Origin: a virus | Taxonomy: Duplodnaviria > Caudoviricetes | Strand: one strand, 5' to 3' | Length of the DNA: 64,000 bases | IMG/VR virus record: IMGVR_UViG_3300030330_003968 | Location: 5,711-69,710 of that record | Shown here: positions 2,830 to 25,245 of the stretch, piece after piece | Numbering within the stretch: the first letter of the stretch is position 1 | Layout: every line of letters starts with the position of its first letter | The notes under the pieces: generated by a model | Told to the model about the DNA's origin: nothing | The model's database searches: none | What the model saw: the letters and a program-made list of their open reading frames with translations, nothing else | Translations under genes and position numbers: made by a program

Positions 2830-3465
2830 TCACCTACACTTAAGAATATCCCATGCCTTTTGCATAGCCTTATCTTCTTTCATACTTTCAGGAACATAAA
2901 TAGCATAAGTTCTATTTTTAGCCTTTAGTACATCATAATGTCTTTGAGGAATATCAGGATGTTTTTCTTCAGCATTGAGAAATATCTCAAAACCCTCACT
3001 TGTATATTTTGCTAATCTATTTTCGCTATCATTAGATAAATCAAGAACAATAGGAATCTTTCTTTGGTTTGCTAAATCTTTGATAAAAGGCATTCTTTTT
3101 TCATCTAACATTTTATTAAAACCTCTACCTCTATAATCTACTCCATACATTTCAGGGTGTTTAGGCATACCGCCTACTGTAAAACTACCTGCATCACCAA
3201 TAACATCATCTAATGCTACTACCGCAACTTTAGCAACATAATAACCAAATTCATCTACAATCATCCAAATATAATATTCTTCTCCTTTAAATGTAAAAGG
3301 ACTGTCCTTTCTATTTCTTGGTCTTCTATTTGCTTTCTTCCACCTATTACCTATTTCTATAAATTTGGCTTCTGAGATTGGACCAACTAATGTAAAGGTT
3401 TCCCCATTATTTTCAAATGTTTCTCCCGCAGGTACAGGGTATGTTCCTTCTCTTTCACCTTTCAT
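2830..3465 (-). CDS. GNAT-like acetyltransferase with C-terminal KAWDILK motif
   Basis: acetyl-CoA binding motif A-like VDYRGRGFNKML and downstream YTSEGF. Confidence 0.55.
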   Translation of the reverse strand: MKGEREGTYPVPAGETFENNGETFTLVGPISEAKFIEIGNRWKKANRRPRNRKDSPFTFKGEEYYIWMIVDEFGYYVAKVAVVALDDVIGDAGSFTVGGMPKHPEMYGVDYRGRGFNKMLDEKRMPFIKDLANQRKIPIVLDLSNDSENRLAKYTSEGFEIFLNAEEKHPDIPQRHYDVLKAKNRTYAIYVPESMKEDKAMQKAWDILKCR

Positions 3466-6038
3466 CTAAACATCCCCTTAACCTTATAGATAATTTCTGA
3501 AGTAAATCCAAAGGTTTCGGCAATATCATTAAATGAAGATTGACTCTTAGTAATATTGTATATATCAATACCGTATAAATCTACATTATGTTCTTCCTTA
3601 ATCATATTTGAAACATATTGAATGTCCTCTAAATCACTAATATCTAATAATCCATAATAGATTTTATCTCCTTTCATTTTTCTAAGTATATCTGTTGCTT
3701 CTAACATAGCATGAGTAATTGGTCCTGTTAATTTTACATCACTTTCTAACAACTTTTTCTTTACTCTTTCACTCGCTGATTTAAATCCTCTAATTCTCAT
3801 ACCTGTTGTATTAATATAATTTTCCCATTCATCTGAATTAATTAGGGCTATTAAATTTTCAATACTTACCTGTTCCTCTTTTTGTTTATTATTCCAAAAA
3901 CTTAACGATTCTCCTTCAAAAATAATTTCATCTAATTCAGATTTATCTTCGGTTGCTGAAGCAACATCGTATAAACTTGCACCAAATAGTATTTCACTTC
4001 TTTCAATAATATTATCTAACTCATATGATTCATTTTCTACTACTGAATCTACACCTGCAAAGAATTTAACATAAGCATCCAAAGCATCACTAAACAAATT
4101 ATTCAAATCATCAGTATAAACTAATTCATTTTGATTTGCTATTCTTGCTAAAAATTTATTTAAAGTGTTTAAATCATCTACTTCTACAATAGGTTCATTA
4201 CCTTCTCTCATAGACCTTCTCGCCATGTTAATATTACTACTTGCAACAATTGAAGGGAAATCTTTGAATGCCTTTGATGTAAAGAATTTAGGTACATCTT
4301 CTAACAAAACCATATTACTTGTTAATGGTTTTACATAAAACTCAGAAATAAGAGTTGTTACAGTTTCTATTTCTTTCATTCTATCTAAATCTACTTGACT
4401 CATCTTAGGTTGAAGTGTTCTTGTAATACCACCTAAGTATTGAATAGGTGTACTATCTTGTCCACCCCTACCTCTTCTTACAGGTCTATCAGGTACTCTT
4501 TGTTTTGAGTATTGTAAATTAATAAAATTACCTACACCTTTAAAGAATCTTTCTGTACCAACATTAATAAATTTAACAGCCTCAGAATATTTTCTAAATG
4601 ATTCAGATTTTTTAATTCCCTTCTCATAATAATTAACAGTATAAAGTGCTTCTAAACTATCGAAATATTTTATAGCGAACTCATCATCTAATAAGGGAAT
4701 ATAAGAATCTCCTCTAATCATAGTACTTTTTCTAAAATTATCTAAGAATTTTTCTAATTCTTTATCTACAATTTTTTCAAGGTCTTTTTGGAATGCACCC
4801 ATAGTTTCAAATTTTAATTCAGATTTAATTAATTTAAGAGCCTCATCAATAACATCGTTATCATATTCACCCTTTAATTCTTTGTCCCTCATTAACAAAG
4901 CAAATAGTGGGTCTGTTTCTTTATCTATTTTAGTTTCATCTATTTCTTTTTCGGCTGCTTCAACTTCATCTACTAAATCATCTGTTGCCGTTGGGTCAAT
5001 AGATAAAGTAGAGCCTCCACCTTCAGCATCATAATCTTCTCTTGCAGTTACATTTATTCTTGCTTCGGCTTCCTTAGCATCAACTTTAGGTCTAAACTCT
5101 TCAGGTATTTCTCTACCTATTTCACTAAAGAAATCTCTAAATAATTCTAATGCTTGATATTCAGGTCCATTACTTTTAATTTTCATACCTGATACTTTAA
5201 TAATATAAGAAGGAAGATATGCATTTTCAGTTAATTTATTAATATCGCTATATGCTTCCTTAATTCTTTTTTCTTCCTCTTCTTCTTTATCAGATTTAGG
5301 GCTTTCAGCAAAAGGTTGTGATTCATTAAACTGTGCAATAATTCTTTCTACATTTGTTATTTCATCATCTACTGCACCAACAAACCCATCAAAATCTTCA
5401 AATTTAGTTTCTATATTTTTCCAATATCTGTAATATTTTTCTCTTGATTCAGTAGATATAACACTCGCATTTACTAAAGATTTTTCTAATAAGTCTAAAC
5501 TTTTAAACTCAGGTATTTCAGCAATTTCACTTGCTTCTTCATCGCTAATACCACCCAATCTTTCAATTAGTATTTGTATTGCTTCTTTATCCTCTTCATT
5601 TAAAATATCTTTACCCATTCTACTTGCTCTTTGGGTTAAAACTTTATTTAATTCTTCAACTAATTCTTCTTTATTTTCAACAGCATTATATGTTACATCA
5701 ATTTTTCTTGCTGATTTAATTGCCGCTACAAGTGAATCTCTATTCTTTTCTGTGTTTAAAGAAGTGGCTATTTGATTAGCATCTTTTCCATCAATAATAA
5801 AATTACTAATAATACCCTCGTTTGGATTAAAGACCTCTCCCCTTTGTTCCTTGTAATCAGTAATATCATTGAATAGTCTTTTTAATTCACCTATTCTCAT
5901 TTTATCATTATCAGTTTCCTGTTGTACTAAGGCAAGTGTTTCTTGTAGTCTTTCATCAGTAATTCTACCTCTTTCATATCTACCTGCATCTCTAAATAAT
6001 CTTGTTCTCAATTCATCAGACAAGTTATCTATATCCAT
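3462..6038 (-). CDS. Large acidic hypothetical protein (858 aa), possible virion protein
   Basis: long ORF coupled to both neighbours; no recognisable motif. Confidence 0.6.
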   Translation of the reverse strand: MDIDNLSDELRTRLFRDAGRYERGRITDERLQETLALVQQETDNDKMRIGELKRLFNDITDYKEQRGEVFNPNEGIISNFIIDGKDANQIATSLNTEKNRDSLVAAIKSARKIDVTYNAVENKEELVEELNKVLTQRASRMGKDILNEEDKEAIQILIERLGGISDEEASEIAEIPEFKSLDLLEKSLVNASVISTESREKYYRYWKNIETKFEDFDGFVGAVDDEITNVERIIAQFNESQPFAESPKSDKEEEEEKRIKEAYSDINKLTENAYLPSYIIKVSGMKIKSNGPEYQALELFRDFFSEIGREIPEEFRPKVDAKEAEARINVTAREDYDAEGGGSTLSIDPTATDDLVDEVEAAEKEIDETKIDKETDPLFALLMRDKELKGEYDNDVIDEALKLIKSELKFETMGAFQKDLEKIVDKELEKFLDNFRKSTMIRGDSYIPLLDDEFAIKYFDSLEALYTVNYYEKGIKKSESFRKYSEAVKFINVGTERFFKGVGNFINLQYSKQRVPDRPVRRGRGGQDSTPIQYLGGITRTLQPKMSQVDLDRMKEIETVTTLISEFYVKPLTSNMVLLEDVPKFFTSKAFKDFPSIVASSNINMARRSMREGNEPIVEVDDLNTLNKFLARIANQNELVYTDDLNNLFSDALDAYVKFFAGVDSVVENESYELDNIIERSEILFGASLYDVASATEDKSELDEIIFEGESLSFWNNKQKEEQVSIENLIALINSDEWENYINTTGMRIRGFKSASERVKKKLLESDVKLTGPITHAMLEATDILRKMKGDKIYYGLLDISDLEDIQYVSNMIKEEHNVDLYGIDIYNITKSQSSFNDIAETFGFTSEIIYKVKGMFR

Positions 6039-8230: not shown

Positions 8231-8239
8231 ATGACAACC

Positions 8240-8455
8240 TCACAGTTGAGATTGTACTAATGCTACTACTACCAAAATAGAAGGTATTGCAATAAGAATT
8301 TGTTTCTTATATTGCTTAAGTTTAGCGAGAATCTTATCAACCTTTTTCTCACTAATAAGTCCTAAATCTTCCGCAATATCAAGAGCATCTTCTACTAAAT
8401 CTTCTACATCTTCTACTGTTTCTTTAATTTCTTCTTCCTTTACCATTTTATTCAC
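8240..8455 (-). CDS. Small membrane protein with C-terminal TM helix
   Basis: acidic N-terminus, hydrophobic ILIAIPSILVVVALV tail. Confidence 0.6.
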   Translation of the reverse strand: MNKMVKEEEIKETVEDVEDLVEDALDIAEDLGLISEKKVDKILAKLKQYKKQILIAIPSILVVVALVQSQL

Positions 8456-8810
8456 CTTTAATTGTGTCCATAGTATTACTATGAGTATTATTTTCTGCTT
8501 CCATAGCCATTTGATGTCTATGTTGTGCTTCTTCTAAACCTCTTCGGTGTTCATATTCAGCAGGTACTTCTGTAATTTCATTAGCCTGTTCCGCTTCCCA
8601 TGTTCTTAAAAGAGTATTAAATGCGGGTGCTGCAATTCCACCAATAATAGCAATAAGAGCAATAAAACCATCAAGATTCTGTAATACTACATCGGGCTTC
8701 ATAATACCTGTATAAACAACTGCACCTGAAGCCAATAACCACAAATAAATAGCAGGTAGTACAGTTTTATTTACTAATTTATCATTAAATGTATTTTTAT
8801 CTTTACCCAT
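8448..8810 (-). CDS. Two-TM membrane protein (holin-like)
   Basis: two hydrophobic segments (VLPAIYLWLLASGAVVY; FIALIAIIGGIAAPAF) and a charged tail. Confidence 0.55.
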   Translation of the reverse strand: MGKDKNTFNDKLVNKTVLPAIYLWLLASGAVVYTGIMKPDVVLQNLDGFIALIAIIGGIAAPAFNTLLRTWEAEQANEITEVPAEYEHRRGLEEAQHRHQMAMEAENNTHSNTMDTIKGE

Positions 8811-8811
8811 T

Positions 8812-9069
8812 TTACATCACCTGTGTTCCAACCATAATAGACGATACTATCCCTATTAATCCTAATATTACTTTCTTAATTAAATCAAACCCTTCCCCGA
8901 TAATTTGGTTCTGTGCATCCATTGATGTTGCTAACTCCGTTAATCTCGTACTTAACTCTAACTGATTATCCGCTAATTTATCTAAAAGTAATTCATGTCT
9001 ATCAACCTTTGTTTCGATATTGTCTAATCTAATATCCTGAACATCGTCTTTAGCCATTGTATTACTCAC
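8812..9069 (-). CDS. Coiled-coil protein with C-terminal TM helix
   Basis: heptad-like N-terminus followed by VILGLIGIVSSIMVG. Confidence 0.55.
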   Translation of the reverse strand: MSNTMAKDDVQDIRLDNIETKVDRHELLLDKLADNQLELSTRLTELATSMDAQNQIIGEGFDLIKKVILGLIGIVSSIMVGTQVM

Positions 9070-10457: not shown

Positions 10458-10649
10458 TCAATCCCTTGCTAAGAAAGCACTATTACCGCCCTTTCTACTT
10501 TTACTTCTTTTTTGTGGTATCTTTTTATTTTCTTCGGCTAATGCTTTGAAATCTGCACCTGTAATTTTATGTTTAGGTTCAGCCGCCTCAGCAATTTTCT
10601 TTTGTTTATCAGTTAATTTTTTATTTTTAATTACAGTCCACCATTTCAT
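10458..10649 (-). CDS. Small basic W-leader protein
   Basis: starts MKWWTVIKN; contains LTDKQKKIAEAAEPKHKITGADFKAL. Confidence 0.6.
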   Translation of the reverse strand: MKWWTVIKNKKLTDKQKKIAEAAEPKHKITGADFKALAEENKKIPQKRSKSRKGGNSAFLARD

Positions 10650-11932: not shown

Positions 11933-13233
11933 TATTTACCACAACCGCAAGGTGTTGTTTTATCATTACATTTTTTACAAGGAGGTTTTTCACCATACAT
12001 TATATTTGCTTCAGCAGGTCTAAAACCCGCATTTGTTGTCATTCCTGTTCCTGCTCTTTTAGATAATAAATCACGCCAACCGAATTCTCCTGTATATTGG
12101 TCGTTAGATTTAAATTCTTCTTCAAACTTTCGTCTTTCTTCATCTGTCATTTCTCCTACTTGTACTTGTGGTCTATCTCTCATTTCTTGTGCTTGTTGTT
12201 CTGTTAATTGGTCTGATACTTCAGGATTACTTTCAACACTTTCTTGAAATTGTACTAATCTAACTTGGAATGCAAAACCTACATTACCTGTAAATTTCTT
12301 AACTAATTCTGTCATTTCAGATGAAGCATAAACCTTTTGTAAATTATTCTTAACATTTCTTCTAATTTCGTTATTGTTAATATCGGTTTTCCCATCACCA
12401 TCTAAATCAAAAATACTTTCTTCAGCATCATTAATTACATCATCTAAATATTCATCAACATTGTTAATTAAATTCTTAACATCCTTTTCAATCCTACTAC
12501 CTAACGATGTCCATTGGTCTTCAATAAATGATTGAGGTGGGTCATCCATAAAATCAATTTCTTCATCATCTTCCTCATCTTCATCTTCACTATAAGATTC
12601 TTTATCAAACAGATGTTGTTGTTTTGTATATGATGCATCAAATATCGCAGACATCATTTCTTCTGTAAATTTAAGTCCTGCATCTACCATTCTATTATAT
12701 CCTGATGAACCCATAATTCCTTGAATACTTCTTTCTGAATCATCGAAATTTTTATTATTTTTAGTAAGACTTGTTAGATAACCTTCAAGCATACCTTCAA
12801 TATTATTCATAGCAATTTCCATACCAATACTTTGAATATTTTTAGATGCCTTTGATTTCTTTTTATCTACTCTTGCAAATCCTGGATTTTCAGGGTCTAA
12901 ATTAACTGATGTTTGTCCGAAAGCACCGACCTTTCCTAAATATTCATCAAAGGTATTCATTATGGTTCTAAACCAATTTACAAGACCCACCTTTTGTAGT
13001 CTTATTTCATCAGGTAAAGGTTTATCAGGATTTTCTTCTCTAAAGTCAGCAACATTTTCTCTAATATTACCATCTTTATCTCTAATTATAGATTGTTTAT
13101 CCCTTCTAAATGGCTTTTGTTTAAACCCATAACCGTCAATAAATACTGAACCATCGGGTTTTTGAAATCTATCACCGAGTTTGATTTTGCGTTTATCATC
13201 ATCATCATCTTTTAGTATATTTCTCCAATTCAT
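11932..13233 (-). CDS. W-leader acidic protein (433 aa)
   Basis: starts MNWRNILKD; second W motif GWRDLLSK and C-terminal CxxC...CxC. Confidence 0.65.
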   Translation of the reverse strand: MNWRNILKDDDDDKRKIKLGDRFQKPDGSVFIDGYGFKQKPFRRDKQSIIRDKDGNIRENVADFREENPDKPLPDEIRLQKVGLVNWFRTIMNTFDEYLGKVGAFGQTSVNLDPENPGFARVDKKKSKASKNIQSIGMEIAMNNIEGMLEGYLTSLTKNNKNFDDSERSIQGIMGSSGYNRMVDAGLKFTEEMMSAIFDASYTKQQHLFDKESYSEDEDEEDDEEIDFMDDPPQSFIEDQWTSLGSRIEKDVKNLINNVDEYLDDVINDAEESIFDLDGDGKTDINNNEIRRNVKNNLQKVYASSEMTELVKKFTGNVGFAFQVRLVQFQESVESNPEVSDQLTEQQAQEMRDRPQVQVGEMTDEERRKFEEEFKSNDQYTGEFGWRDLLSKRAGTGMTTNAGFRPAEANIMYGEKPPCKKCNDKTTPCGCGK

Positions 13234-15958: not shown

Positions 15959-16678
15959 TTAACCACCTATCCCATATCTAATTTCTAATAATCTTAATTG
16001 TAATAATAGTAAAAATAAACCATTACTTGTTCTTATTGACACACCAACTGCATTACCTATAAACATATCCATGTCACTTTTTGGTATTTGTTCACTACTA
16101 TTTAAATTATTAAATAATTTATCAAAAGTATCTAATGCTTTTTGTAACTCATTTTTTGATACATCAAATATATCATAAGTAAATAATTCATCAATATTAA
16201 TATTTCTTGCAACATGTTTAGCAGAAGTAGTAAATAATGGTGAAGCATTAATAAGACTACTTTTGAATATATTATAATGTTTATTAAACTCACTAACGGG
16301 CATAACCTCAAACTGAACTTTATTTTCAGACCCCGTACCTCCGAGCATTATATGTTGTTTTCCTGTCATCATTGTAGTATCATTAAAATCATAAAATAAT
16401 TCTACTTCATCTTCGGTTAATTTTGCTACATTTATTATAGGCTTACCCGTCATTCTAAAATTTCCACCCGTACTACCATACAAAGCATAAGGCATAGACT
16501 CATATACATTTGTACTCCAATATTCACTTGAGCCTCCTTCTTGATTTCCTTGATAAATAGTTTCTACTATTTTTTCATCAAATTTTGGTTGTCCTGTTTT
16601 CCAATAGTCACCCGTTTTTCTCTTAGAAAAATTAGGGTTTGTTAATTTATATGGGGATTTGAGAATATCTTTCCACAT
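15959..16678 (-). CDS. W-leader protein, possible ADP-ribosyltransferase-like fold
   Basis: start re-placed at MWKDILKS; IYQG...YWSTN...PYA pattern. Confidence 0.5.
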   Translation of the reverse strand: MWKDILKSPYKLTNPNFSKRKTGDYWKTGQPKFDEKIVETIYQGNQEGGSSEYWSTNVYESMPYALYGSTGGNFRMTGKPIINVAKLTEDEVELFYDFNDTTMMTGKQHIMLGGTGSENKVQFEVMPVSEFNKHYNIFKSSLINASPLFTTSAKHVARNINIDELFTYDIFDVSKNELQKALDTFDKLFNNLNSSEQIPKSDMDMFIGNAVGVSIRTSNGLFLLLLQLRLLEIRYGIGG

Positions 16679-16679
16679 A

Positions 16680-16994
16680 TTATTTTCTCCTTTCTTTAGT
16701 TTTTCTTTTTTGTTGATTAATAAAAGTTCTATAAATATCTGCCGCAGATTTTTTACCCATTTCTCTTGCTCTTTGTTCCATAGCAATAGCCGCTTGAGTT
16801 TTGTGTGCGTGTGTCCTATTACTTCTTTTTATTTTTGCTACTGAGCGTTTAGCAGTTTCTACATCTTTAAATCCTAAACCATGTATCGTTCCTTTAGGAT
16901 TTTCATCTGTATATAAATCTGAATGTTTTTTAGAATTAGCAGGTTGCCCTTTCTTTCTTGGTATTCTTTTTGCTTTAAGAATATTTTTCCACAC
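16680..16994 (-). CDS. W-leader basic protein
   Basis: GTG start VWKNILKA; HSDLYTDENPKGTIHGLGF segment. Confidence 0.65.
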   Translation of the reverse strand: MWKNILKAKRIPRKKGQPANSKKHSDLYTDENPKGTIHGLGFKDVETAKRSVAKIKRSNRTHAHKTQAAIAMEQRAREMGKKSAADIYRTFINQQKRKTKERRK

Positions 16995-16995: not shown

Positions 16996-18039
16996 TTATC
17001 CTCTCCTCTTAAACCAACCGTGAAGCCCATACTTTTCTTCTAAACTAAAAGTGCCTTTTCTTCTTTTCTTTTTCTTTCCTCTTTTACCTGCTCGTCTTTT
17101 ATAATCTTTACAGGCTGAACAAGTTGGTCGGCATCTTCTTTTTTGCCCTTTAGAAGCATCCCTTCTACCGCACGGTCTACGCTTTTTTCCTTTACCACAT
17201 GAAGAACAATCAATCCAACCTTTGTATAATACATCCTCCCATGATTTTTTTATATCACTTTTTAGATAAGTGTCAGCAATTAGTAATCCTATTTTTTCTC
17301 CAGCCTCTATATCACTTGGATAATGATTACCCATTAACACTCTTGATAAAGAAATTGCTTCAGCCATATTAAATAATTCTTCTTCCTTATCAGGGTATTC
17401 TTCAGCAAGAACTTTTGCTAAGGCATATGCTTCAATAGCATGACCACTTGGAAAAGATGGTGAATCATCTGTATCTGTAATAGAATCTATTTTATCTGAA
17501 ATTTCATAAGGTCTTTTTCTTTTATATTTCATTTTTAATTTAATAGTATGAATATCTGTATCTTCTATAAAGTCTTTCCAATTATTTATATCTTCATCAA
17601 CAATATCTAACATCATTTTATGATTATTTTTATCTAAATCATTTTTAGTATCTTCATCCATCTCATACTTTTTCATAATATCAATTACTTCAGGTAATTC
17701 TTTTTCGTTATCGGGAAATGATAATTCAGGAAAATCTACATCAAATGATGGTTTGCTATTTAGTAATTTTTTTTTACTATTAGATAATTCTTGCATCCAT
17801 TTTGATTCAGATTTCTTTACTGAATTTCCCCAATTAGCAGCACCTTTTTTTCTACATTGAACTAATGCGCCACTTGCATAAGCACTGGGCCACTTTTTAT
17901 ATCTTCTTCGCACTTTATAATAACAAGCATCTCTTTTACCTTTAGATTTACCATCTCTTCTTGTTTTTTTCTTGGCTCTTTTAGCACCTGATTTTCTACG
18001 GGCTTTGCTTTTCTTTTGAATTATATCCTCCCAACTCAA
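16996..18039 (-). CDS. W-leader protein with PAP2/acid phosphatase domain flanked by K/R/C-rich modules
   Basis: TTG start SWEDIIQK; PAP2 motifs KYKRKRP, PSFPSGHA, SRVLMGNHYPSDI. Confidence 0.8.
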   Translation of the reverse strand: MSWEDIIQKKSKARRKSGAKRAKKKTRRDGKSKGKRDACYYKVRRRYKKWPSAYASGALVQCRKKGAANWGNSVKKSESKWMQELSNSKKKLLNSKPSFDVDFPELSFPDNEKELPEVIDIMKKYEMDEDTKNDLDKNNHKMMLDIVDEDINNWKDFIEDTDIHTIKLKMKYKRKRPYEISDKIDSITDTDDSPSFPSGHAIEAYALAKVLAEEYPDKEEELFNMAEAISLSRVLMGNHYPSDIEAGEKIGLLIADTYLKSDIKKSWEDVLYKGWIDCSSCGKGKKRRPCGRRDASKGQKRRCRPTCSACKDYKRRAGKRGKKKKRRKGTFSLEEKYGLHGWFKRRG

Positions 18040-18925: not shown

Positions 18926-19216
18926 TCACTCAAATGGGTCATCCTTTAATCTAATATCTCCTTTAGTCTTTACTAAAATTTCAAGCAATTTTTCCTTAGA
19001 TAGACCTTTTAGATAATATTCAATTTCTGTAATAATATCTTGTTTAGTAGCCCTTGCTAATTCTTCTTCAGTTTTTGTATCATATATATCTTCAAATGAT
19101 TCATTAACATCAGATTGTCTATCATCTACTTCTAATAAATCATCGGCTTTACTTCCACCTGCTGACCTTATTTGCGGTTTTCTTCTAATTGTTTTTAAAA
19201 TTGTCATCCATGTCAT
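18926..19216 (-). CDS. W-leader hypothetical protein
   Basis: starts MTWMTILKT. Confidence 0.65.
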   Translation of the reverse strand: MTWMTILKTIRRKPQIRSAGGSKADDLLEVDDRQSDVNESFEDIYDTKTEEELARATKQDIITEIEYYLKGLSKEKLLEILVKTKGDIRLKDDPFE

Positions 19217-19686
19217 TGTTCTTCCCTACTCCATAAGTTAGACCATAGAGAATTTCTTTTATAATTTTCTCTAAGATATTCGTTAATTTCTTTTCTTGAT
19301 GGTGAATTAAACTTTAATTTGCTAATAATTTTTTGATACATCTCTTCAAAATTTGTATTATTTCCTACCATTTCATCTACCATTTCTCTCCAATCAGATT
19401 TGTTAATAGGTTCAGGTAATTTTCTAAAAACATAATTTGTTCTACCTCCTGCATCACTCGCAATTTTATCCTGTTTAGATTCTACTAAACCATCTCTTTC
19501 TAATGCTTTTAGTGTAAATACAAGTTGTGTAGCAGTAAAATCACCTGCCCTTCGACCACCTCTATCCTTTAATCTTTCTAAAACTCCACCTGCTGATAAA
19601 AATTGGTCTTCTGATAAACCATATTTATAGACATATCTTTTGTTATGTGGGGAGGTAGCCTTTCCCTTTAGAATATTAGCCCACAT
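19213..19686 (-). CDS. W-leader two-module protein (wHTH-like modules)
   Basis: starts MWANILKG; internal INKSDW junction. Confidence 0.6.
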   Translation of the reverse strand: MWANILKGKATSPHNKRYVYKYGLSEDQFLSAGGVLERLKDRGGRRAGDFTATQLVFTLKALERDGLVESKQDKIASDAGGRTNYVFRKLPEPINKSDWREMVDEMVGNNTNFEEMYQKIISKLKFNSPSRKEINEYLRENYKRNSLWSNLWSREEQ

Positions 19687-19733
19687 AAATATCCCTTAGT
19701 ACAATTTAATTTAAAGTTACTATTTAAAAGTTA

Positions 19734-20450
19734 TCACAATTTAGAAGTAATTATACTCATGAAATAGTGATACATTCTATTGAAAACTGCATCGTCATCA
19801 GTTTTATCTTTTTGGTTTTGATATAAAAATTCTATAACATCCCTTATTAGTTTATAGTAAAATTCATGTCGTAAGTTTATATTACCTATATAGTCAAAAA
19901 ATAAATCAAATTTATCAAGATTTTTTTTAATTTCTTCTTCCCATTCATCTAAAATAATATGTTTATTTGTTTGTAAGTTAGTATCTTTATCGGCATCTGC
20001 TTGTAAAACAATAATATATTGAGTCAAAAGCCAAGGTATTGCAAAGGGATAATTTTCATTTTCTTTTTCAGGTATTGTACCAAAAGATAAATCTATTCTA
20101 AACCATAATTTATATGCATTATTAGGATATGCAAAAACTTCTAAATCCCACAAGTTTCCATATTCTTCATAATTTAAACCAAATTCGACATCTTCATTAT
20201 GATGGTACGATGTTTCCGTTTCTAATATTCTTTTTAATTCACAACACATATCTTCTCGCTCGGCAAGAGCACGATTTATCATAAAAATATTATTATATGG
20301 TTTAAACAACGGTTCATTTACTATACTCTTTAATTCTAATAACCATTGATAACAATCATCGTCATCATCATCAGGTAAGGGTTGATTGTCCGACCTTAAT
20401 TTTTGTCTCCCAACCTGAATTTGGTTTTTTATAATATCTTCCCAATTCAT
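19734..20450 (-). CDS. PLPD-acidic-Cys family paralog
   Basis: MNWEDIIKNQIQVGRQKLRSDNQPLPDDDDDDC. Confidence 0.75.
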   Translation of the reverse strand: MNWEDIIKNQIQVGRQKLRSDNQPLPDDDDDDCYQWLLELKSIVNEPLFKPYNNIFMINRALAEREDMCCELKRILETETSYHHNEDVEFGLNYEEYGNLWDLEVFAYPNNAYKLWFRIDLSFGTIPEKENENYPFAIPWLLTQYIIVLQADADKDTNLQTNKHIILDEWEEEIKKNLDKFDLFFDYIGNINLRHEFYYKLIRDVIEFLYQNQKDKTDDDAVFNRMYHYFMSIITSKL

Positions 20451-21631
20451 TATAATTCCCTTCTTTTTCTTTCAATAACGCCTCTTGCAAAATGTTCTAA
20501 TTCACCACAAAATCTAACTAACCCTGTTCTAAAACCACGAACCTTACCTACTTGTCCTAAAGCAATAAACCAAGATATAGAATGTCCATAAGAATTACCA
20601 ATTTTAACCTTAATTCCTCCACCATCTACTATATGCTGCCCATGTCTAAAATCATAAAATGCACTTGTTTCTAATAATTTACAAAACCATTCATTAGAGG
20701 ATGGATATTGTGTATCTAAATAATGATAAAATCTAAGTTTTACTTCAAAACCTACATCGCTATTATGTTTTGCCATATAACAGATTGATTGACCCTCCCC
20801 TCTTTGTTCTTCAAAAGCAGTTTGAGTGTACCATTTACCATCATCATAATTTTGAATCCAATTTTTAATTTCATCTACTGCTTCTCTCCATAATTGTTCG
20901 CAGTTTTTATCATCTTCTTCATCGGGTAATGGGTTATCATCTGTTCTTAATTTTTGACGACCTACTTGAATTTGGCTCTTTTTAAAATCAAATTTCATAC
21001 CTCTATGTAATTGGACACCTGCAAAAAATCTATCTGCGGCTGAATCGACCTTTTTAGGGTTTAATGTCATTATACTTTCTTCAAATTCTCTTAACTCATG
21101 AGCGAATCTTGCTACATTTTTCCACCAATCAAATAACATTTGTTTTTTATATTCGCCTTTGCGTTCAGCACCAAACATCATTGTAAATAAATTAGACATA
21201 TCACCATCAGGTGTTACCATTTCTGTTTCAAGAACACATTCATTACTTTGTAATTGTAGTTCGCAGATAAAAAATATTTTTACATCTTTTTTTGTTGGTG
21301 GTAACACTTCACCCTTAAGATTACCTCTATATGTAACTTTACCTGAAAGTCCAGCAACATAAACTCTTCCACCATCACTTGAATGACTATTAAATGATAA
21401 TGTTTCTAAAAATTCACACCATTGTTCAGGAGTTAATTTATATCTATAACCTAAATCGAATAATAAAGTTTTATTAGGGTCTATAATATTACCCATCTTT
21501 TGAAATTGTCTAACAATATAATCAAATTTTTGAAAGCAATCTTCATCGTCATCATCTGGTAATGGATTATTATCAGACCTTAACTTTTGTCTTGTTTGGC
21601 TTATCTGCACTTTAATAATATCTTCCCACAT
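20450..21631 (-). CDS. PLPD-acidic-Cys family paralog, two fused modules
   Basis: N-terminal leader plus an internal copy FKKSQIQVGRQKLRTDDNPLPDEEDDKNC. Confidence 0.75.
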   Translation of the reverse strand: MWEDIIKVQISQTRQKLRSDNNPLPDDDDEDCFQKFDYIVRQFQKMGNIIDPNKTLLFDLGYRYKLTPEQWCEFLETLSFNSHSSDGGRVYVAGLSGKVTYRGNLKGEVLPPTKKDVKIFFICELQLQSNECVLETEMVTPDGDMSNLFTMMFGAERKGEYKKQMLFDWWKNVARFAHELREFEESIMTLNPKKVDSAADRFFAGVQLHRGMKFDFKKSQIQVGRQKLRTDDNPLPDEEDDKNCEQLWREAVDEIKNWIQNYDDGKWYTQTAFEEQRGEGQSICYMAKHNSDVGFEVKLRFYHYLDTQYPSSNEWFCKLLETSAFYDFRHGQHIVDGGGIKVKIGNSYGHSISWFIALGQVGKVRGFRTGLVRFCGELEHFARGVIERKRREL

Positions 21632-22089
21632 TAGGCATACCTCTTTATAACGCTAAGTAATTCATCAAATTTTTCTAAAGTATTAAATATTTCTAATTCA
21701 TAACACAACTCACCATCGTACTGTAATCCTATAATTATCTTATCTTCTGATGGTACATGGGTTAAAAATCCATAATCTGTCCTATATATAATATTATTAG
21801 TACGGGAATATAAAATCTCACTATCATATATACTAATCTTAACACGAATTCTATAATTTTTAATATCTCTAAAAAAGTCTAAAAATTTACAAAATATTTC
21901 TTCTGGAACTCTATCCAACTTATTATATCTATAACTCTTATACTTAGTTTTATTAGCCTCTATCATAGCATCTAAATACATAAACTTTCTTTTACAATCC
22001 TCTTCTTCATCTTCAGGAAGAGGTTGGTCGTCAGTCCTTAACTTTTGGCGACCTACTTGTATTTGATTTTTTAAAACATCTTTCCACAT
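21631..22089 (-). CDS. PLPD-acidic-Cys family paralog
   Basis: MWKDVLKNQIQVGRQKLRTDDQPLPEDEEEDC. Confidence 0.75.
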   Translation of the reverse strand: MWKDVLKNQIQVGRQKLRTDDQPLPEDEEEDCKRKFMYLDAMIEANKTKYKSYRYNKLDRVPEEIFCKFLDFFRDIKNYRIRVKISIYDSEILYSRTNNIIYRTDYGFLTHVPSEDKIIIGLQYDGELCYELEIFNTLEKFDELLSVIKRYA

Positions 22090-22090
22090 T

Positions 22091-22720
22091 CTAAATCCCC
22101 CTTGTATATTCTCTAATCTTATTCATAAATTCTGGACTTGTTGGGAAAGATACCTTAGCGTTACTTTCAATAGTATTTTTGATAGCCTCATGTAAAAATT
22201 CCAATTCTTCCATAACTCCTATGGTTAAATCTGGTAAAGCAAATCGTAATAAAACATGAAATTTATTATCTAAATCATAACATGTTTTAACTTTTATTTC
22301 TACTTGACAATTTTTACCAAAACTCGTTTTACCTCTATAAACACTTATAATAACACCTAAACCATCTTCTAATACACCTTTTACTTCAAACTTTGATAGT
22401 ACTGATAAAGTATCTTTTTCAGGTCTATCTAATATTACTAAGTCTGTATGTTCATAATTAGAAAAACCTCCTAATATTTTACACCATACATCTTCATCAT
22501 ATAAATTTCTTGAAAATGCTTCAATTGCTGCACTCTTATTGTAATTTGTAGCATAAGTATTACCTTGAAAAGTTATCGCATGTTTTAAAATTTCTCTAAA
22601 TATTTTTTGTACAATAGGGAAACATTCTTCATCATCATCTTCAGGTAGTGGTTCTTTATCAGTACGCAACTTCTGTCTTGAAGTAGTAATCTGAACCTTT
22701 AGTATATCTTCCCAATTCAT
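22091..22720 (-). CDS. PLPD-acidic-Cys family paralog
   Basis: MNWEDILKVQITTSRQKLRTDKEPLPEDDDEEC. Confidence 0.75.
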   Translation of the reverse strand: MNWEDILKVQITTSRQKLRTDKEPLPEDDDEECFPIVQKIFREILKHAITFQGNTYATNYNKSAAIEAFSRNLYDEDVWCKILGGFSNYEHTDLVILDRPEKDTLSVLSKFEVKGVLEDGLGVIISVYRGKTSFGKNCQVEIKVKTCYDLDNKFHVLLRFALPDLTIGVMEELEFLHEAIKNTIESNAKVSFPTSPEFMNKIREYTRGI

Positions 22721-23382
22721 AGCCACCCATCCAATTTAATTTCATCAAAATTACTTGTATATTTCATCGGTTTATATTCATTTTTATAAGGAAGATGAAA
22801 ATCTGTAATTAAACCTTTAATCGCAAATGCTGTTCCGTATTTATCCCTTACTCTAAAATGTAGAAGTTTTTTACTTGGTACAAAACCTGTTCTTTGGCGA
22901 TTGTCAGAATATCTTATCCCCATATGTATTTTAAAATCATATTCTTCATAAGTATATTGTTTATCAAAATCACTTTTACTACTAAGTTGTCGTATAAAAA
23001 TCTCTAACATTTCTAATATTACACACGCTTCTTCTTCAGAATATTTATTTCCAGGTCTTGTTCTCCAATATGTTCTTGTGCCATGTAAATATTGTTTAAA
23101 ATATTCTTCAATAACAGGATTTCCATACATAACATTTTCATAAGAAAACTTTGTATCATTTAGTATAGGTACTAAATTATCTCCGTAATACTGTGCCTCT
23201 ATCATTGTAGGATTAATTAACTCTACTTTAAGTACAGGTTTCCAATTTTTAAATTTTTCTAAATATCCCATTAATTCTTGATAGCAGTTTGTATCTTCAT
23301 CATCATCAGGTAAAGGCTCGTCATCTGTTCTTAATTTTTGCCTTGCAACAGAAACCTGCGCCTTTAACAAATCTTCCCACAT
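22717..23382 (-). CDS. PLPD-acidic-Cys family paralog
   Basis: MWEDLLKAQVSVARQKLRTDDEPLPDDDEDTNC. Confidence 0.75.
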   Translation of the reverse strand: MWEDLLKAQVSVARQKLRTDDEPLPDDDEDTNCYQELMGYLEKFKNWKPVLKVELINPTMIEAQYYGDNLVPILNDTKFSYENVMYGNPVIEEYFKQYLHGTRTYWRTRPGNKYSEEEACVILEMLEIFIRQLSSKSDFDKQYTYEEYDFKIHMGIRYSDNRQRTGFVPSKKLLHFRVRDKYGTAFAIKGLITDFHLPYKNEYKPMKYTSNFDEIKLDGWL

Positions 23383-23384
23383 AA

Positions 23385-23870
23385 TTAATACCTACTTTCA
23401 TCGTATCTTTTACCATCAAGTCTATCTAAAACTCTACTTGGAGAAGTATTATCTACTTTAGGATTATAATTAATTGGGTCGGGTAACTCTTCTCCATCTT
23501 CTATAATAATAAATTTATAAGATGGTGCACTTAACATCATAAATACTCCATCATAAACGATAGCAGTCCCACCAAATAAACTTCCTTCAACAGTCCAAGG
23601 TCTTGGATTTCCATCTGCCCTCATTCTCCTTTCTATTTCGTTATATGCATTTTGTCTTGTATCAAATAATTCTTTAGGATGTTGAACCCATTCGCCTCTC
23701 AAATTTGGAGAATTATACTGTTCAGTTACAAATACTTTATATTTTATATCCTCATCTTCAGGTAATGGTTCGGCATCTGTACTAACTTTAATATCAGGTT
23801 TAACCTTAGAACCTAAAGATGGTTTAGGTGTTTGTGTTGGACCAAATTTCTTTAAAATATCTTTCCACAT
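23385..23870 (-). CDS. W-leader protein with partial PLPED motif
   Basis: MWKDILKK...KVSTDAEPLPEDED, no following Cys. Confidence 0.65.
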   Translation of the reverse strand: MWKDILKKFGPTQTPKPSLGSKVKPDIKVSTDAEPLPEDEDIKYKVFVTEQYNSPNLRGEWVQHPKELFDTRQNAYNEIERRMRADGNPRPWTVEGSLFGGTAIVYDGVFMMLSAPSYKFIIIEDGEELPDPINYNPKVDNTSPSRVLDRLDGKRYDESRY

Positions 23871-24487
23871 CAAACATTCCTTCCTAATCTTCTAAGAAGT
23901 GCATCATAACTTATACCCTCTTTTGTTGCCTGTTCTTTTAAATCTTCAATCTTATACATTTTTTGATTAATGTATAAATATCCTGGATTTGCTCTTTCAA
24001 CTTCAGCAATAGTTTCTTCAGCAGTTTGTCTATCCTCACCTGAAGTATCTCTCAAATCTTTTCTTTCTCTAATATTTTCTTTTACATTTCTTGCTACTGC
24101 ATCAGCAACAATAGTAATTAGTTTAGTTTCACTACTTACTACATCATCTCTTGTCAAGGTTACAGATGGACCAAGTAATCTTTCAAAATAATAATCACCT
24201 GATTCATCCTCCATCATGATAATTTCAAATACTTCTCTTTGTTTAGTATCTTTATGTCTATATGAAATTCTAATCTGTAATATTTCATCTGAAATATATC
24301 TTTCTCTAACATTAATATTAGAAACTCTATCCTCTCCCTCTCTCATGGCTTGAGTAATTTTACCATAGTATTGACTTGCTGATGCTCTAACTGCTGCTCT
24401 TAACCTTTCAACAAAATTATCTACATCAGTTACAATTAAATTTTCACCTTGATTATTTTTAATTTTTAATATTTCTTCCCATGTCAT
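23870..24487 (-). CDS. W-leader hypothetical protein
   Basis: starts MTWEEILKI. Confidence 0.65.
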   Translation of the reverse strand: MTWEEILKIKNNQGENLIVTDVDNFVERLRAAVRASASQYYGKITQAMREGEDRVSNINVRERYISDEILQIRISYRHKDTKQREVFEIIMMEDESGDYYFERLLGPSVTLTRDDVVSSETKLITIVADAVARNVKENIRERKDLRDTSGEDRQTAEETIAEVERANPGYLYINQKMYKIEDLKEQATKEGISYDALLRRLGRNV

Positions 24488-25245
24488 AATACATCACTTC
24501 CGTATTCCTGTAATAAGTAAGGTTCTTCAGTCATTAATTTTTCCTTTATCTTATTATACATTTCCATTGTTGCTGGATTTCTTGATGCTTTCTCTTTTAC
24601 CTGTGGATGTCTAAGTACTGCTAATAATCTACCATTAGGATTATCAGGCATTTGTACTGTATAGGCAATATATTCTTCCATTAAACTATTACCTTCTGAT
24701 ATACCTGCGGATTTATCCTTGTATGGATAATCTAATATTTTTGATGCTTGATGTCCAAACTCATGAGTTAAGGTATCGTATATTTTTTCCTGTTGCTCAT
24801 AATAATATTCTCTATCAAATGGGAATAATTTAGTAGCCAAATTAACTACTACTGCATCATCTTCAGGACTATAATATCCTGCCGACCTTCTTTTAGGTTC
24901 ATATCTAAAATCAGCCGTCATCATTTGCGAACTTAATTCATTTAACATTTCGTTAAAATCTTCTAAGTCATAATGTTCTTCAATTCTATCCTTATCAGTA
25001 TTATAGACTACCTGCACTCTATCTAAAATTTTAGAAATAACTGAATCATATTTTGCTAATACTTCTTTTGTTGTCGGACCTGCTACATCTAATAGGTCTT
25101 GTAATTCATTATGAAGTCTATCTATTTCAGGAGTCCAATATTCATATCTACCACCTTTATAAAAACCCATAACATCTTCTAAGTCATCAAGAATATCATC
25201 CATATTTGTTGGAGTTAAACTCTTAAGGACTTCAAACCATGTCAT
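24484..25245 (-). CDS. W-leader protein with zincin metallopeptidase motif
   Basis: starts MTWFEVLKS; AGYYSP...VVVNL, LTHEFGH and downstream EEYIA. Confidence 0.65.
   Translation of the reverse strand: MTWFEVLKSLTPTNMDDILDDLEDVMGFYKGGRYEYWTPEIDRLHNELQDLLDVAGPTTKEVLAKYDSVISKILDRVQVVYNTDKDRIEEHYDLEDFNEMLNELSSQMMTADFRYEPKRRSAGYYSPEDDAVVVNLATKLFPFDREYYYEQQEKIYDTLTHEFGHQASKILDYPYKDKSAGISEGNSLMEEYIAYTVQMPDNPNGRLLAVLRHPQVKEKASRNPATMEMYNKIKEKLMTEEPYLLQEYGSDVL

What the first reader, a model, noticed from the sequence alone, without database searches (positions are those of the whole stretch)
2830..25245. About 25 unrelated genes share a W-x-x-[ILV]-[LI]-K leader: candidate capsid-targeting tag
Seen: 25 minus-strand ORFs begin M-(x)-W-x-x-[ILV]-[LI]-K or a close variant: MSWISLLK (8230), MEWTNILK (9331), MSWKEILK (9794), MKWWTVIK (10649), MNWRNILK (13233), MTWEKYLK (13385), MSWEDTLQK (13636), MSWNTILK (15415), MWEEILK (15723), MWKDILK (16678, 18592, 23870), VWKNILK (16994), LSWEDIIQK (18039), MSWEDILK (18341), MRWNDIIRK (18920), MTWMTILK (19216), MWANILK (19686), MNWEDIIK (20450), MWEDIIK (21631), MWKDVLK (22089), MNWEDILK (22720), MWEDLLK (23382), MTWEEILK (24487), MTWFEVLK (25245). 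What follows the leader is mostly unrelated. I found no full motif at the start of any replication-arm gene. It also occurs internally and near a C-terminus (KAWDILK in 2830..3465), so it behaves as a portable peptide tag. Established: phage T4 internal proteins use a ~10-aa N-terminal capsid targeting sequence removed by the prohead protease. Inference: this archaeal virus uses an analogous short amphipathic tag, probably cleaved after Lys, to load many proteins into the virion for delivery into the host. I know of no description of this for archaeal viruses but could not search the literature.
Basis: partly seen in the sequence, partly recalled or inferred. Interest (0 to 1): 0.92.

Follow-up and report, generated by a model that had tools for sequence, protein, structure and literature searches.

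The report
Shared address tag on magrovirus proteins
About a quarter of the genes in this window of an ocean archaeal virus (a magrovirus) begin with the same seven-residue peptide, which resembles the tail of the virus family's own capsid scaffold, so it is most likely a portable label that loads a fast-changing set of soluble proteins into the virus head, though loading has never been measured.

Summary
Observation confirmed. All 25 listed minus-strand genes start with M-(x)-W-x-x-[ILV]-[IL]-K or a near variant (21 strict; chance expectation 0.01 per 108 genes). On the replication arm 1 weak match was found among 483 candidate starts. Synonymous codons in the motif vary much as in the rest of the genome, so the peptide is what is conserved, not the DNA. 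The tag is lineage-wide: 173 distinct tags in 13 related virus genomes or loci and at least 119 IMG/VR stretches, against 29 scattered single hits in 596 Gb of cellular genomes, none archaeal.

New here:
1. The conserved 425-aa gene inside the block is not the capsid protein. In a complete relative the true head genes lie beyond the terminase.
2. The family's prohead protease-scaffold protein ends in a conserved ...E-M-S-W-D/E-E/D-I... peptide that resembles the tag.
3. Two cargo domains shared with marine phages carry the W tag in magrovirus-like viruses. In other phages they carry other leaders, which are T4-CTS-like in T4-type phages.
4. Tagged proteins are all soluble and turn over fast.

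Best reading (about 0.55): a scaffold-mimicking encapsidation tag. Packaging, cleavage and delivery are unmeasured. This scan has noted the same tag on other magrovirus genomes. I found no paper describing it.

The parts
24484..25245 (-). tagged gene, MTWFEVLK, 253 aa, first gene of the leftward block
23870..24487 (-). tagged gene, MTWEEILK, 205 aa
23385..23870 (-). tagged gene, MWKDILK, 161 aa
22717..23382 (-). tagged gene, MWEDLLK, 221 aa; paralog family with extended leader (...RQKLRTD..PLP.acidic.C)
22091..22720 (-). tagged gene, MNWEDILK, 209 aa; same paralog family
21631..22089 (-). tagged gene, MWKDVLK, 152 aa; same paralog family
20450..21631 (-). tagged gene, MWEDIIK, 393 aa; same paralog family
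19734..20450 (-). tagged gene, MNWEDIIK, 238 aa; same paralog family
19213..19686 (-). tagged gene, MWANILK, 157 aa
18926..19216 (-). tagged gene, MTWMTILK, 96 aa
18597..18920 (-). tagged gene, variant MRWNDIIRK, 107 aa
18344..18592 (-). tagged gene, MWKDILK, 82 aa
18045..18341 (-). tagged gene, MSWEDILK followed by a basic run, 98 aa; weak DUF5754 match (26.2 bits, just below the cut-off)
16996..18039 (-). tagged gene with TTG start, LSWEDIIQK, 347 aa. Order: tag, basic run, DACYYK-type domain, soluble PAP2 phosphatase domain, internal tag copy, Cys-rich basic tail
17221..17244 (-). internal tag-like copy SWEDVLYK inside the PAP2 gene. No start codon or Shine-Dalgarno sequence before it
16680..16994 (-). 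tagged gene with GTG start, VWKNILK-AK-RIPRKKGQ..., 104 aa; member of a marine-phage family with more than 3000 hits whose leader changes with the virus lineage
15959..16678 (-). tagged gene, MWKDILK, 239 aa
15412..15723 (-). tagged gene, MWEEILK, 103 aa
13691..15415 (-). tagged gene, MSWNTILK, 574 aa
13385..13636 (-). tagged gene, variant MSWEDTLQK, 83 aa
13230..13385 (-). tagged gene, variant MTWEKYLK, 51 aa
11932..13233 (-). tagged gene, MNWRNILK, 433 aa, acidic and poorly conserved in the middle
12058..12081 (-). conserved internal copy GWRDLLSK, 48 aa from the C-terminus of the 433-aa protein, followed by G-M-T-T-N-A-G-F and a Cys cluster
10458..10649 (-). tagged gene, MKWWTVIK, 63 aa
9342..9794 (-). 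tagged gene, MSWKEILK, 150 aa
9062..9331 (-). tagged gene, MEWTNILK, 89 aa
6038..8230 (-). tagged gene, MSWISLLK, 730 aa, largest tagged protein
1406..2833 (-). large terminase subunit, untagged; marks the end of the tagged block and the start of the head module, which runs off the left end of the window

Best explanation
The leader M-(S/T/N)-W-x-x-[IV]-[IL]-K is a portable peptide tag, selected at the protein level and specific to magrovirus-like tailed viruses of marine archaea. It is most likely an encapsidation signal. It imitates the conserved C-terminal peptide (...E/N-M/L-S/T/D-W-D/E-E/D-I/V...) of the virus family's own prohead protease-scaffold fusion protein. In other tailed viruses that end of the scaffold holds on to the inner face of the capsid protein. 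Tagged proteins would therefore be built into the procapsid together with the scaffold. They would probably be clipped behind the Lys by the S78-type prohead protease, stay in the head, and enter the host with the DNA.

Shown here:
- The constraint acts on the peptide, not the DNA.
- The tag is portable between unrelated proteins.
- It is restricted to one gene block and one virus lineage.
- It resembles the scaffold tail.
- The tagged proteins are soluble and turn over fast.

Inferred, not shown: binding to capsid or scaffold, packaging, cleavage and delivery.
For: 1. Peptide-level signal, far above chance. There are 21 strict and 4 variant tags, against 0.01 expected. Codons at the I, L and K positions are mixed as genome-wide in 173 distinct tags.

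2. Confined to one block. In this genome 22 of 29 minus-strand genes between 11748 and 30955 of the record carry the tag, against 1 of 79 elsewhere (Fisher p = 7e-16). In the complete relative G002 the figures are 24 of 39 against 1 of 81 (p = 5e-14). The terminase, portal, protease-scaffold, capsid protein, tail tube and replication genes are all untagged.

3. Lineage-wide and viral.
- Tags occur on orthologs and non-orthologs in relatives down to 29% identity of the 425-aa marker protein.
- The DNA pattern for M-[ST..]-W-E-D-I-L-K gives 29 single, scattered, non-archaeal hits in 596 Gb of species-representative genomes.
- The same pattern gives at least 119 stretches in IMG/VR.
- The 80 IMG/VR loci fetched hold 386 strict tags in 727 kb, median 4 per locus.

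4. Portability.
- In the PRIPRKKGQ...HSDLYTDENPKG family, 40 of the 120 best hits have the W tag directly before the domain.
- In the same family, 13 of the 120 best hits have M-K-T-F-K-Q-F-I-E-A-like leaders.
- Three virus records of this family carry a T4-type S77 protease: one with such a CTS-like leader, one with a hybrid leader, one with a fusion form (3 of 5 records searched).
- The T4 capsid targeting sequence is MKTYQEFIAE; it is cut off once and the cargo stays in the head (PMC8442874, passage read).
- A second domain (DACYHK...) repeats the pattern: 20 of 120 hits carry the W tag and the rest carry other leaders.

5. Scaffold mimicry.
- In about 60 distinct loci the protein just upstream of the true capsid gene (S78 domain, acidic run, coiled coil) ends in ...H-E-M-S-W-D-E-I-N-E-L-V... 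or a close form.
- The same holds in 5 of 5 further tag-bearing lineages.
- It is the only internal match to [ML][STN]W[DEKQ][DEN][IVL] in 30,598 residues of G002 and in 27,805 residues of G004.
- With a scoring matrix built from 119 tags it ranks 34th of 29,758 positions in G002 and 18th of 27,014 in G004, the higher ranks being mostly real tags.
- Scaffold ends contact the capsid protein N-arm in 80alpha, P22 and phi29 (PMC12749128, passage read).

6. Cargo-like properties.
- 0 of 68 tagged proteins have a membrane-like segment, against 30 of 273 untagged.
- Only 8 of 23 tagged proteins have a homolog in G002, against 53 of 75 untagged. This parallels the diverse T-even internal proteins that share only the targeting sequence (PMC3012670, passage read).
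- In the AlphaFold2 model of a tagged family member the tag lies on a low-confidence N-terminal extension outside the folded three-helix domain.
Against: - No call shows packaging, cleavage or injection.
- Tag and scaffold tail agree only over M-S/T-W-acidic-acidic-I/V. After that the tag has L-K and the tail has N/H-x-L. The tail scores 5.9 bits where true tags score 12-16.
- Across lineages the tail varies (MSW, MDW, MTW) while the tags stay the same, so I saw no covariation.
- AlphaFold2 predicts no helix for the tag.
- The 25 tagged proteins sum to about 5,300 residues, including proteins of 730, 574, 433 and 393 aa (lengths). That is a large cargo list for a head that also holds about 95 kb of DNA.
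- The block starts right after the strand-switch region and lies upstream of the terminase, a position that would also suit early or middle genes.
- The protease-scaffold and capsid genes of this very genome are not on the 69.7-kb record, so the scaffold argument rests on relatives. The closest is L271, on the same contig as L001.
- The tail of haloarchaeal virus HVTV-1, whose protease domain is the nearest cultured relative, shows no convincing copy of the motif.
Confidence: 0.55

Rival explanations
1. The tag is a docking or recognition motif for the head-assembly machinery (prohead protease, portal or an assembly chaperone). It marks proteins that act or are processed at the assembling head but are not carried in the finished virion or delivered to the host.
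For: The tag resembles the tail of the protease-scaffold fusion. Aliphatic-aliphatic-Lys is invariant just before and just after the S78 domain in 55 distinct protease-scaffold proteins, and at residues 24-26 of all 41 aligned capsid proteins. The I-L-K end of the tag could therefore be a protease site.
Against: The same tripeptide is also invariant twice inside the protease fold, so it is not diagnostic of a cleavage site. Twenty-five fast-turning-over, mostly small proteins do not look like assembly factors, which are normally conserved.
Confidence: 0.15
2. The tag is a short linear motif for a partner unrelated to the capsid. One candidate is the virus's ubiquitin-like system: W-x-x-[ILV] is the core of Atg8/LC3-interacting motifs (recalled), and the invariant Lys could be a conjugation site. 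Another candidate is a chaperonin.
For: A ThiF/E1-like gene lies on the other arm (PF00899, 3.1e-17). The Lys is kept in 158 of 173 tags.
Against: Nothing links the two systems beyond co-occurrence. This reading does not explain the copy of the motif at the scaffold tail. The same cargo domains carry T4-CTS-like leaders in T4-type phages, which points to a capsid role. No binding test was run.
Confidence: 0.1
3. The tag acts at the N-terminus itself, as a nascent-peptide or N-end element that sets the translation efficiency, N-terminal processing or half-life of one class of viral proteins.
For: It sits at a fixed distance (0-2 residues) from the initiator Met in 173 tags. The residue after Met is mostly S, T or N.
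Against: Copies survive inside natural fusion proteins, without a start codon or Shine-Dalgarno sequence before them. Copies also occur near C-termini. Those positions make no sense for an N-end element.
Confidence: 0.07
4. The tag is the start of a membrane-active amphipathic N-terminus that takes the proteins to the host membrane.
For: The only literature hits for the tag strings are frog dermaseptins, which begin A-L-W-K-D-I-L-K (search listing only).
Against: Only 6-7 residues are conserved, and what follows is usually highly charged. No tagged protein has a hydrophobic segment (0 of 68).
Confidence: 0.04
5. The conservation lies in the DNA or RNA, as a promoter, ribosome-binding or recombination element at gene starts.
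For: The motif always sits at gene starts in a tightly packed operon, with GGAGG-like sequences 5-10 nt upstream.
Against: Synonymous positions vary freely and follow genome-wide codon use. The two x positions vary. The exact DNA pattern occurs once in the window.
Confidence: 0.01

Closest known systems
Capsid targeting sequence (CTS) of phage T4 internal proteins (MKTYQEFIAE; PMC8442874 and PMC3012670, passages read)
   Same: Both are short N-terminal peptides shared by otherwise diverse, non-essential-looking proteins whose genes turn over fast. One cargo domain family found here carries a T4-CTS-like leader in phages with a T4-type protease and carries the W tag in magrovirus-like viruses, at the same junction.
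   Different: There is no sequence similarity. The virus family here uses an S78 (HK97-type) protease-scaffold fusion, not the T4 S77 protease. About 25 genes per genome carry the tag, against a handful in T4. The host is an archaeon. Targeting and cleavage are shown for T4 but not here.
Capsid-binding ends of scaffolding proteins and of the HK97 maturation protease (PMC12749128, passage read; Duda, Oh and Hendrix 2013, J Mol Biol 425:2765, seen only as a reference title, paper not held)
   Same: In both, a short terminal peptide of an internal head protein docks on the inner face of an HK97-fold capsid protein. Here the protease-scaffold tail and the tag share M-S/T-W-acidic-acidic-I/V.
   Different: In the known cases the peptide belongs to the scaffold or protease itself. 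Here the same kind of peptide would have been copied onto the N-termini of dozens of unrelated proteins. Binding has not been tested.
Cargo-loading peptides of encapsulins and encapsulation peptides of bacterial microcompartments
   Same: They are short terminal peptides that load several unrelated enzymes into a protein shell. Encapsulin shells have the HK97 fold.
   Different: Those are cellular compartments, their tags have other sequences and are mostly C-terminal in encapsulins, and no genome or delivery to another cell is involved.

Membership tests
T4-type capsid targeting sequence | Short N-terminal peptide common to otherwise unrelated proteins of one virus | tested here: met
   25 genes in the window and 173 distinct tags in 13 genomes or loci
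T4-type capsid targeting sequence | Sequence like MKTYQEFIAE, and a T4-type (S77) prohead protease that removes it | tested here: not met
   The tag consensus M-S-W-E-D-I-L-K is unrelated. Relatives encode S78, not S77: PF04586 in G002 and in 5 of 5 further records. S77 was found only in T4-like records that carry the CTS-like leaders.
T4-type capsid targeting sequence | The peptide suffices to put a foreign protein into the head, and is cleaved off | not testable with these tools
   Needs expression or virion proteomics.
T4-type capsid targeting sequence | Cargo genes are diverse and variable between related viruses | tested here: met
   8 of 23 tagged proteins have a homolog in G002 against 53 of 75 untagged; in G004 the figures are 5 of 23 against 33 of 75.
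Scaffold or protease capsid-docking peptide | The peptide matches the terminal capsid-binding peptide of the virus's own scaffold or protease | tested here: met
   The tail ...E-M-S-W-D-E-I... is conserved in about 60 loci and in 5 further lineages. It is the only internal regex match. It ranks 34 of 29,758 and 18 of 27,014 positions by a tag-derived scoring matrix. The similarity covers 5-6 residues only.
Scaffold or protease capsid-docking peptide | Physical binding to the capsid protein interior | not testable with these tools
   Needs a binding or co-assembly experiment.
Sec or Tat signal peptide | A hydrophobic core of about 10-20 residues after a short charged N-region | tested here: not met
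   0 of 68 tagged proteins have a 19-residue window with Kyte-Doolittle mean of 1.6 or more. The tag is followed by charged residues.
Nucleotide-level start-associated element | Conservation of the DNA itself, including synonymous positions | tested here: not met
   Codon choice at the I, L and K positions follows genome-wide use. Sequences are shown.
Atg8/LC3-interacting (LIR/AIM) motif | Core W/F/Y-x-x-L/I/V that binds a ubiquitin-like fold (definition recalled) | tested here: inconclusive
   The core pattern is present in every tag and a ThiF/E1 gene is on the other arm. No binding test was run.

The most novel reading that the evidence does not exclude
Magroviruses, among the most abundant viruses of the surface ocean, load 20-30 different, rapidly diversifying soluble proteins per genome into their heads. 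The cargo includes enzymes such as a PAP2 phosphatase and small basic proteins shared with cyanophages and pelagiphages. Each cargo protein carries a seven-residue copy of the scaffold's capsid-binding tail. The head protease releases the proteins and they are injected as an effector arsenal. Relative to genome size this would be the largest virion-delivered effector set known in a tailed virus, the first encapsidation code in an archaeal virus, and a ready-made tag for loading foreign proteins into archaeal virus capsids.
Probability: 0.4. Interest if true: 0.9.

Novelty: new variant of a known kind. Interest (0 to 1): 0.8.

Why it matters
Magroviruses are uncultured and most of their genes have no known function. 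A shared tag would assign a location (inside the head) and a role (delivered cargo) to about a quarter of the genes in one step. It would also explain the hypervariable block as an arms-race arsenal like the T-even internal proteins. The idea can be tested without a cultured host, by co-expressing capsid protein, protease-scaffold and a tagged reporter. The finding further suggests that several small domain families widespread in marine phages are head-internal proteins whose leaders are swapped to fit each lineage's assembly machinery.

Tried and rejected
1. I first took the conserved 425-aa gene (10655-11932) for the capsid protein and the 433-aa gene for a scaffold or protease. This was wrong.
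- Neither gave any Pfam, PHROG or PDB sequence hit. The 425-aa and 433-aa proteins found nothing in 50,697 phage records.
- The AlphaFold2 model of the 425-aa protein (pLDDT 75.6) matched nothing by Foldseek (best E 0.64). VIA-align gave only helical-bundle noise (best Z 6.7).
- The true portal, protease-scaffold, capsid protein and tail tube were then found downstream of the terminase in the complete relative G002.

2. The ESM Atlas gave nothing usable for the 730-aa and 858-aa proteins. PDB sequence searches of these two gave nothing relevant.

3. Pfam on 20 further block proteins gave no match above a curated cut-off.

4. Complex prediction: the capsid protein of the closest relative (alignment A4) against the 45-residue leader of the paralog family (alignment A5). 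The verdict was 'no answer', with score 0.00 in two runs and the controls not run. This is neither support nor evidence against binding.

5. The host control through a Poseidoniales genome failed. The 544-aa protein I used as bait found no relative in genome contigs. I replaced the control with a pattern scan of all species-representative genomes. That scan tests only the M-[ST..]-W-E-D-I-L-K form of the tag.

6. The tail of the HVTV-1 protease was read. It has K-S-W-E-Q-E but no aliphatic residue at +3, so I do not count it as a copy.

7. I looked for covariation between tag and scaffold tail across lineages by eye and saw none.

8. Literature.
- The magrovirus listing holds 22 papers.
- 'find' for motif, N-terminal, leader and similar terms in PMC5434244, PMC11706807 and PMC10160649 found nothing relevant.
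- Tag strings matched only dermaseptin and unrelated papers.
- 'archaeal virus' + 'targeting sequence' + capsid + N-terminal + encapsidat: 0 papers.
- Poseidoniales + virus + 'conserved N-terminal': 1 unrelated preprint listed of 2 papers that hold the terms.
- Supplementary files were not opened. The gene tables of the magrovirus papers (for example Table S1 and Figure S2 of PMC5434244) could hold annotations that I did not see.

I therefore could not inspect the contigs of the database proteins with T4-CTS-like leaders. I used IMG/VR loci instead.

Full report
WHAT IS THERE. The window is bases 5711-69710 of a 69.7-kb IMG/VR virus record. GC skew splits it into a minus-strand arm (1 to about 26 kb) and a plus-strand arm (about 30-62 kb). 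The plus arm encodes family-B DNA polymerase, a clamp-loader-like AAA protein, an ATP-dependent ligase, ribonucleotide reductase and a ThiF/E1-like protein. The protease of close relatives is most like those of haloarchaeal tailed viruses. Both points fit the published description of magroviruses (PMC5434244, passages read).

Twenty-one fit W-x-x-[ILV]-[LI]-K strictly and four are near variants. The strict pattern is expected 0.01 times at the N-termini of 108 genes. Only one weak match exists among 483 candidate starts on the plus arm.

First, the five tandem genes at 19734-23382 are paralogs over about 30 further residues. Second, the C-terminal KAWDILK of 2830-3465 has a different spacing.

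PEPTIDE, NOT DNA. Each tagged gene has its own GGAGG-like ribosome-binding site. Within the motif the synonymous positions vary. In 173 distinct tags from 13 genomes or loci, the codons for Ile, Leu and Lys are used roughly as in the rest of the genome. The consensus is M-[S/N/T or none]-W-[E/K]-[D/N]-I-L-K. Lys is kept in 158 of 173 tags, and nothing is conserved after it.

WHERE THE TAG OCCURS. I called ORFs on the whole record and on two relatives fetched whole: G002 (95.6 kb, terminal repeats, CheckV 100%) and G004 (88 kb).
- In this genome 22 of 29 genes of the block are tagged by the automatic rule, which misses three variants. Elsewhere 1 of 79 is tagged.
- In G002 the figures are 24 of 39 against 1 of 81.
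- G004 has two tagged clusters.

My first assumption, that the conserved 425-aa gene in the block is the capsid protein, was wrong. In G002 the portal (PF04860), a ligase-containing protein, the S78 prohead protease (PF04586), the capsid protein (PF17236, phrog_24667), a tail tube (PF18906) and a tape-measure-like protein all lie downstream of the terminase, and all are untagged. In the present record the portal ortholog (86% identical) lies just left of the window, and the record ends before the protease and capsid genes. The tagged block is therefore a roughly 20-kb array between the strand-switch region and the terminase. It is co-oriented with the structural module but is not interleaved with the capsid genes.

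HOW WIDE.
- Using the 425-aa protein as a marker, relatives down to 29% identity carry the tag on orthologous and non-orthologous genes.
- A degenerate DNA pattern for M-[ST..]-W-E-D-I-L-K matches once in the window, and in none of 100 shuffles.
- The pattern matches 29 times in 596 Gb of species-representative bacterial and archaeal genomes. These are single scattered hits, none in an archaeon and none with neighbouring tags.
Many lie on contigs of 85-99 kb. The 80 loci fetched hold 386 strict tags in 727 kb.

The tag is thus a trait of one virus assemblage, not of its hosts. This control tests one form of the tag only.

PORTABILITY. The 104-aa tagged protein at 16680-16994 belongs to a family with more than 3000 database hits. 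The family is also present in the cyanomyophages S-SM2, P-TIM68 and Bellamy and in Pelagibacter phage Mosig. Among the 120 best hits:
- 40 have the W tag directly in front of the conserved ...RIPRKKGQ... start of the domain;
- many have no prefix (M-S-N-P-R-I-P...);
- 13 have leaders such as M-K-T-F-K-Q-F-I-E-A.

The T4 capsid targeting sequence is MKTYQEFIAE. It is cut off once, while the cargo stays in the head (PMC8442874). T-even internal proteins are diverse and share only this sequence (PMC3012670). Of five virus records of this family that I searched, three encode the T4-type S77 protease: one with a CTS-like leader, one with a hybrid M-W-D-I-L-K-F-K-E-F-I-E-A leader, and one with a fusion form. 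The two negatives are fragments of 24-34% completeness.

A second small domain (DACYHK...SAYASGALV...) shows the same behaviour: 20 of 120 hits carry the W tag and the rest carry other leaders. So the same cargo domains wear different leaders in different virus lineages, joined at the same point.

In some proteins the W tag sits between two domains of a natural fusion, with no start codon or ribosome-binding site before it. In others an ATT or GTG start with a good Shine-Dalgarno sequence explains an apparently internal copy.

THE SCAFFOLD TAIL. The protein encoded just upstream of the true capsid gene is a fusion of an S78 protease domain, an acidic run and a coiled-coil region.
- Its last 15 or so residues are conserved as ...[E/N]-[M/L]-[S/T]-W-[D/E/S]-[E/D]-[I/V/L/A]-[N/H]-x-[L/M/F]... 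in about 60 distinct loci spanning 52-100% capsid identity. This includes the closest relative of this genome.
- The same holds in 5 of 5 further tag-bearing lineages, one of them a 185-kb genome.
- A pattern written after seeing it has this tail as its only internal match in G002 and in G004.
- A scoring matrix built blindly from 119 tags ranks the tail 34th of 29,758 positions in G002 and 18th of 27,014 in G004. Nearly all higher ranks are real tags.
- Its score (5.9 bits) is well below that of true tags, because the tail lacks the L-K end.
- A 75-aa protein of this very genome, just left of the window, ends in a similar I-A-K-M-D-W-K-E-I-D-E-L-V tail.

In 80alpha, P22 and phi29 it is an end of the scaffold that contacts the N-arm helix of the capsid protein (PMC12749128). 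The HK97 protease is reported to carry its own encapsidation determinant. I saw only the title of Duda et al. 2013; the paper is not held.

PROPERTIES OF THE TAGGED PROTEINS.
- None of 68 tagged proteins in three genomes has a membrane-like hydrophobic segment, against 30 of 273 untagged.
- Their median length and pI do not differ much from the rest, except in G004.
- They are poorly conserved between relatives: 8 of 23 against 53 of 75 have a homolog in G002.
- Apart from a soluble PAP2 phosphatase domain (PF01569), Pfam gives no match above a curated cut-off.
- In an AlphaFold2 model of a tagged family member (pLDDT 75.3), residues 1-30 have pLDDT of about 46-51 and no secondary structure, while residues 46-107 form a confident three-helix domain. 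The tag is an appendage, not part of the fold. This gives no support for a preformed helix.

MECHANISM. The best-supported reading is that the tag is an encapsidation signal that copies the capsid-docking tail of the protease-scaffold, so that tagged proteins are co-assembled into the procapsid.

A cleavage after the Lys is plausible. Aliphatic-aliphatic-Lys is invariant at both borders of the S78 domain in 55 distinct proteins and at residues 24-26 of all 41 capsid proteins aligned. I also recall, without having checked, that the HK97 protease cuts its capsid protein after a Lys. However, the same tripeptide is invariant twice inside the protease fold, so this is weak evidence.

Delivery into the host is inferred only by analogy with T4. 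Against this reading stand the large total cargo (about 5,300 residues in 25 proteins), the partial nature of the similarity, the lack of covariation, and the position of the block next to the strand-switch region. The rival readings are listed separately in this report; the DNA-level rival is refuted.

NOVELTY. I found no description in the papers searched. Supplements were not opened. Earlier notes of this scan on other magrovirus genomes describe the same tag and, in three cases, the resemblance to the scaffold tail. I reached that point independently. I tested the 'I-L-K sites' lead myself. Those notes are AI notes and are not independent evidence. The kind of system (capsid targeting sequence, scaffold-like docking peptide) is known. 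Its sequence, its scale (about a quarter of the genes in the window), its derivation from the scaffold tail and its occurrence in an archaeal virus are new.

Noticed in passing
window 10655-11932 (-): The most conserved protein of the tagged block is untagged and 425 aa long, with 55 database relatives and many invariant W, H, G, P and R residues. It has no Pfam, PHROG or PDB match, and its AlphaFold2 model (pLDDT 75.6) matches no known fold. It is not the capsid protein. It could be a receptor or processing factor for the tag.
   Followed up: partly
window 11932-13233 (-); L013:8920-10482: The 433-aa acidic protein carries the tag at its N-terminus. It has a second conserved copy (G-W-R-D-L-L-S-K) 48 residues from its C-terminus, followed by G-M-T-T-N-A-G-F and a Cys cluster. 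In the distant relative L013 this element is in frame with, and N-terminal to, the homolog of the 425-aa protein. In L011 and L012 it sits on a separate small tagged protein.
   Followed up: partly
window 16996-18039 (-): A modular fusion protein: tag, basic run, DACYYK...SAYASGALV domain (phrog_727, 4.3e-15), soluble PAP2 phosphatase domain (PF01569), an internal tag copy, and a Cys-rich basic tail. Relatives split or fuse these modules differently (L001:4012-5900).
   Followed up: partly
window 16680-16994 (-); proteins P0056-P0175; loci L027-L106: The PRIPRKKGQ...HSDLYTDENPKGTIHGLGF family has more than 3000 hits in marine viral metagenomes and in cultured cyanomyophages and pelagiphages. 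Its leaders depend on lineage: W tag, F-D-Q-A-W-x-V-L-K, T4-CTS-like M-K-T-F-K-Q-F-I-E-A, or none. If the leaders are targeting signals, this widespread family is a head-internal protein of many marine phages.
   Followed up: partly
L014:1042-1269 (-), just left of the window: A 75-aa protein between the portal region and the ligase-containing gene ends in ...T-I-A-K-M-D-W-K-E-I-D-E-L-V-V-K-M-S-G-E. This resembles the protease-scaffold tails of distant lineages. It may be a second small scaffold-like protein.
   Followed up: partly
window 2830-3465 (-): The 211-aa protein directly upstream of the terminase ends in Q-K-A-W-D-I-L-K-C-R. Its longer orthologs in G002 and G004 keep K-K-A-W-E-I-L-K internally. 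The spacing is one residue shorter than in the tag.
   Followed up: partly
L001:5914, L009:3750: Two tagged genes in relatives seem to start at ATT (I-S-W-K-D-I-L-K), 5 nt after an AAAGGAGGGG ribosome-binding site. This suggests use of a non-canonical start codon.
   Followed up: no
window 40062-40619 (+): A short ThiF/E1-like protein (PF00899, 3.1e-17) lies on the replication arm. I considered a possible link to the invariant Lys or the W-x-x-I core of the tag but did not test it.
   Followed up: partly
L147 / record G011 (184,733 bases, CheckV 100%): A virus genome twice the usual magrovirus size carries 8 strict W tags in 12 kb and two S78 protease genes. One protease ends in ...A-E-M-D-W-A-D-I-H-K-M-V.
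   Followed up: no
window 22-1476 (-): A 484-aa gene between the terminase and the portal has a weak HNH-endonuclease match (phrog_5046, 8.1e-05) in its C-terminal third. Its start overlaps the terminase gene by about 70 bases.
   Followed up: no
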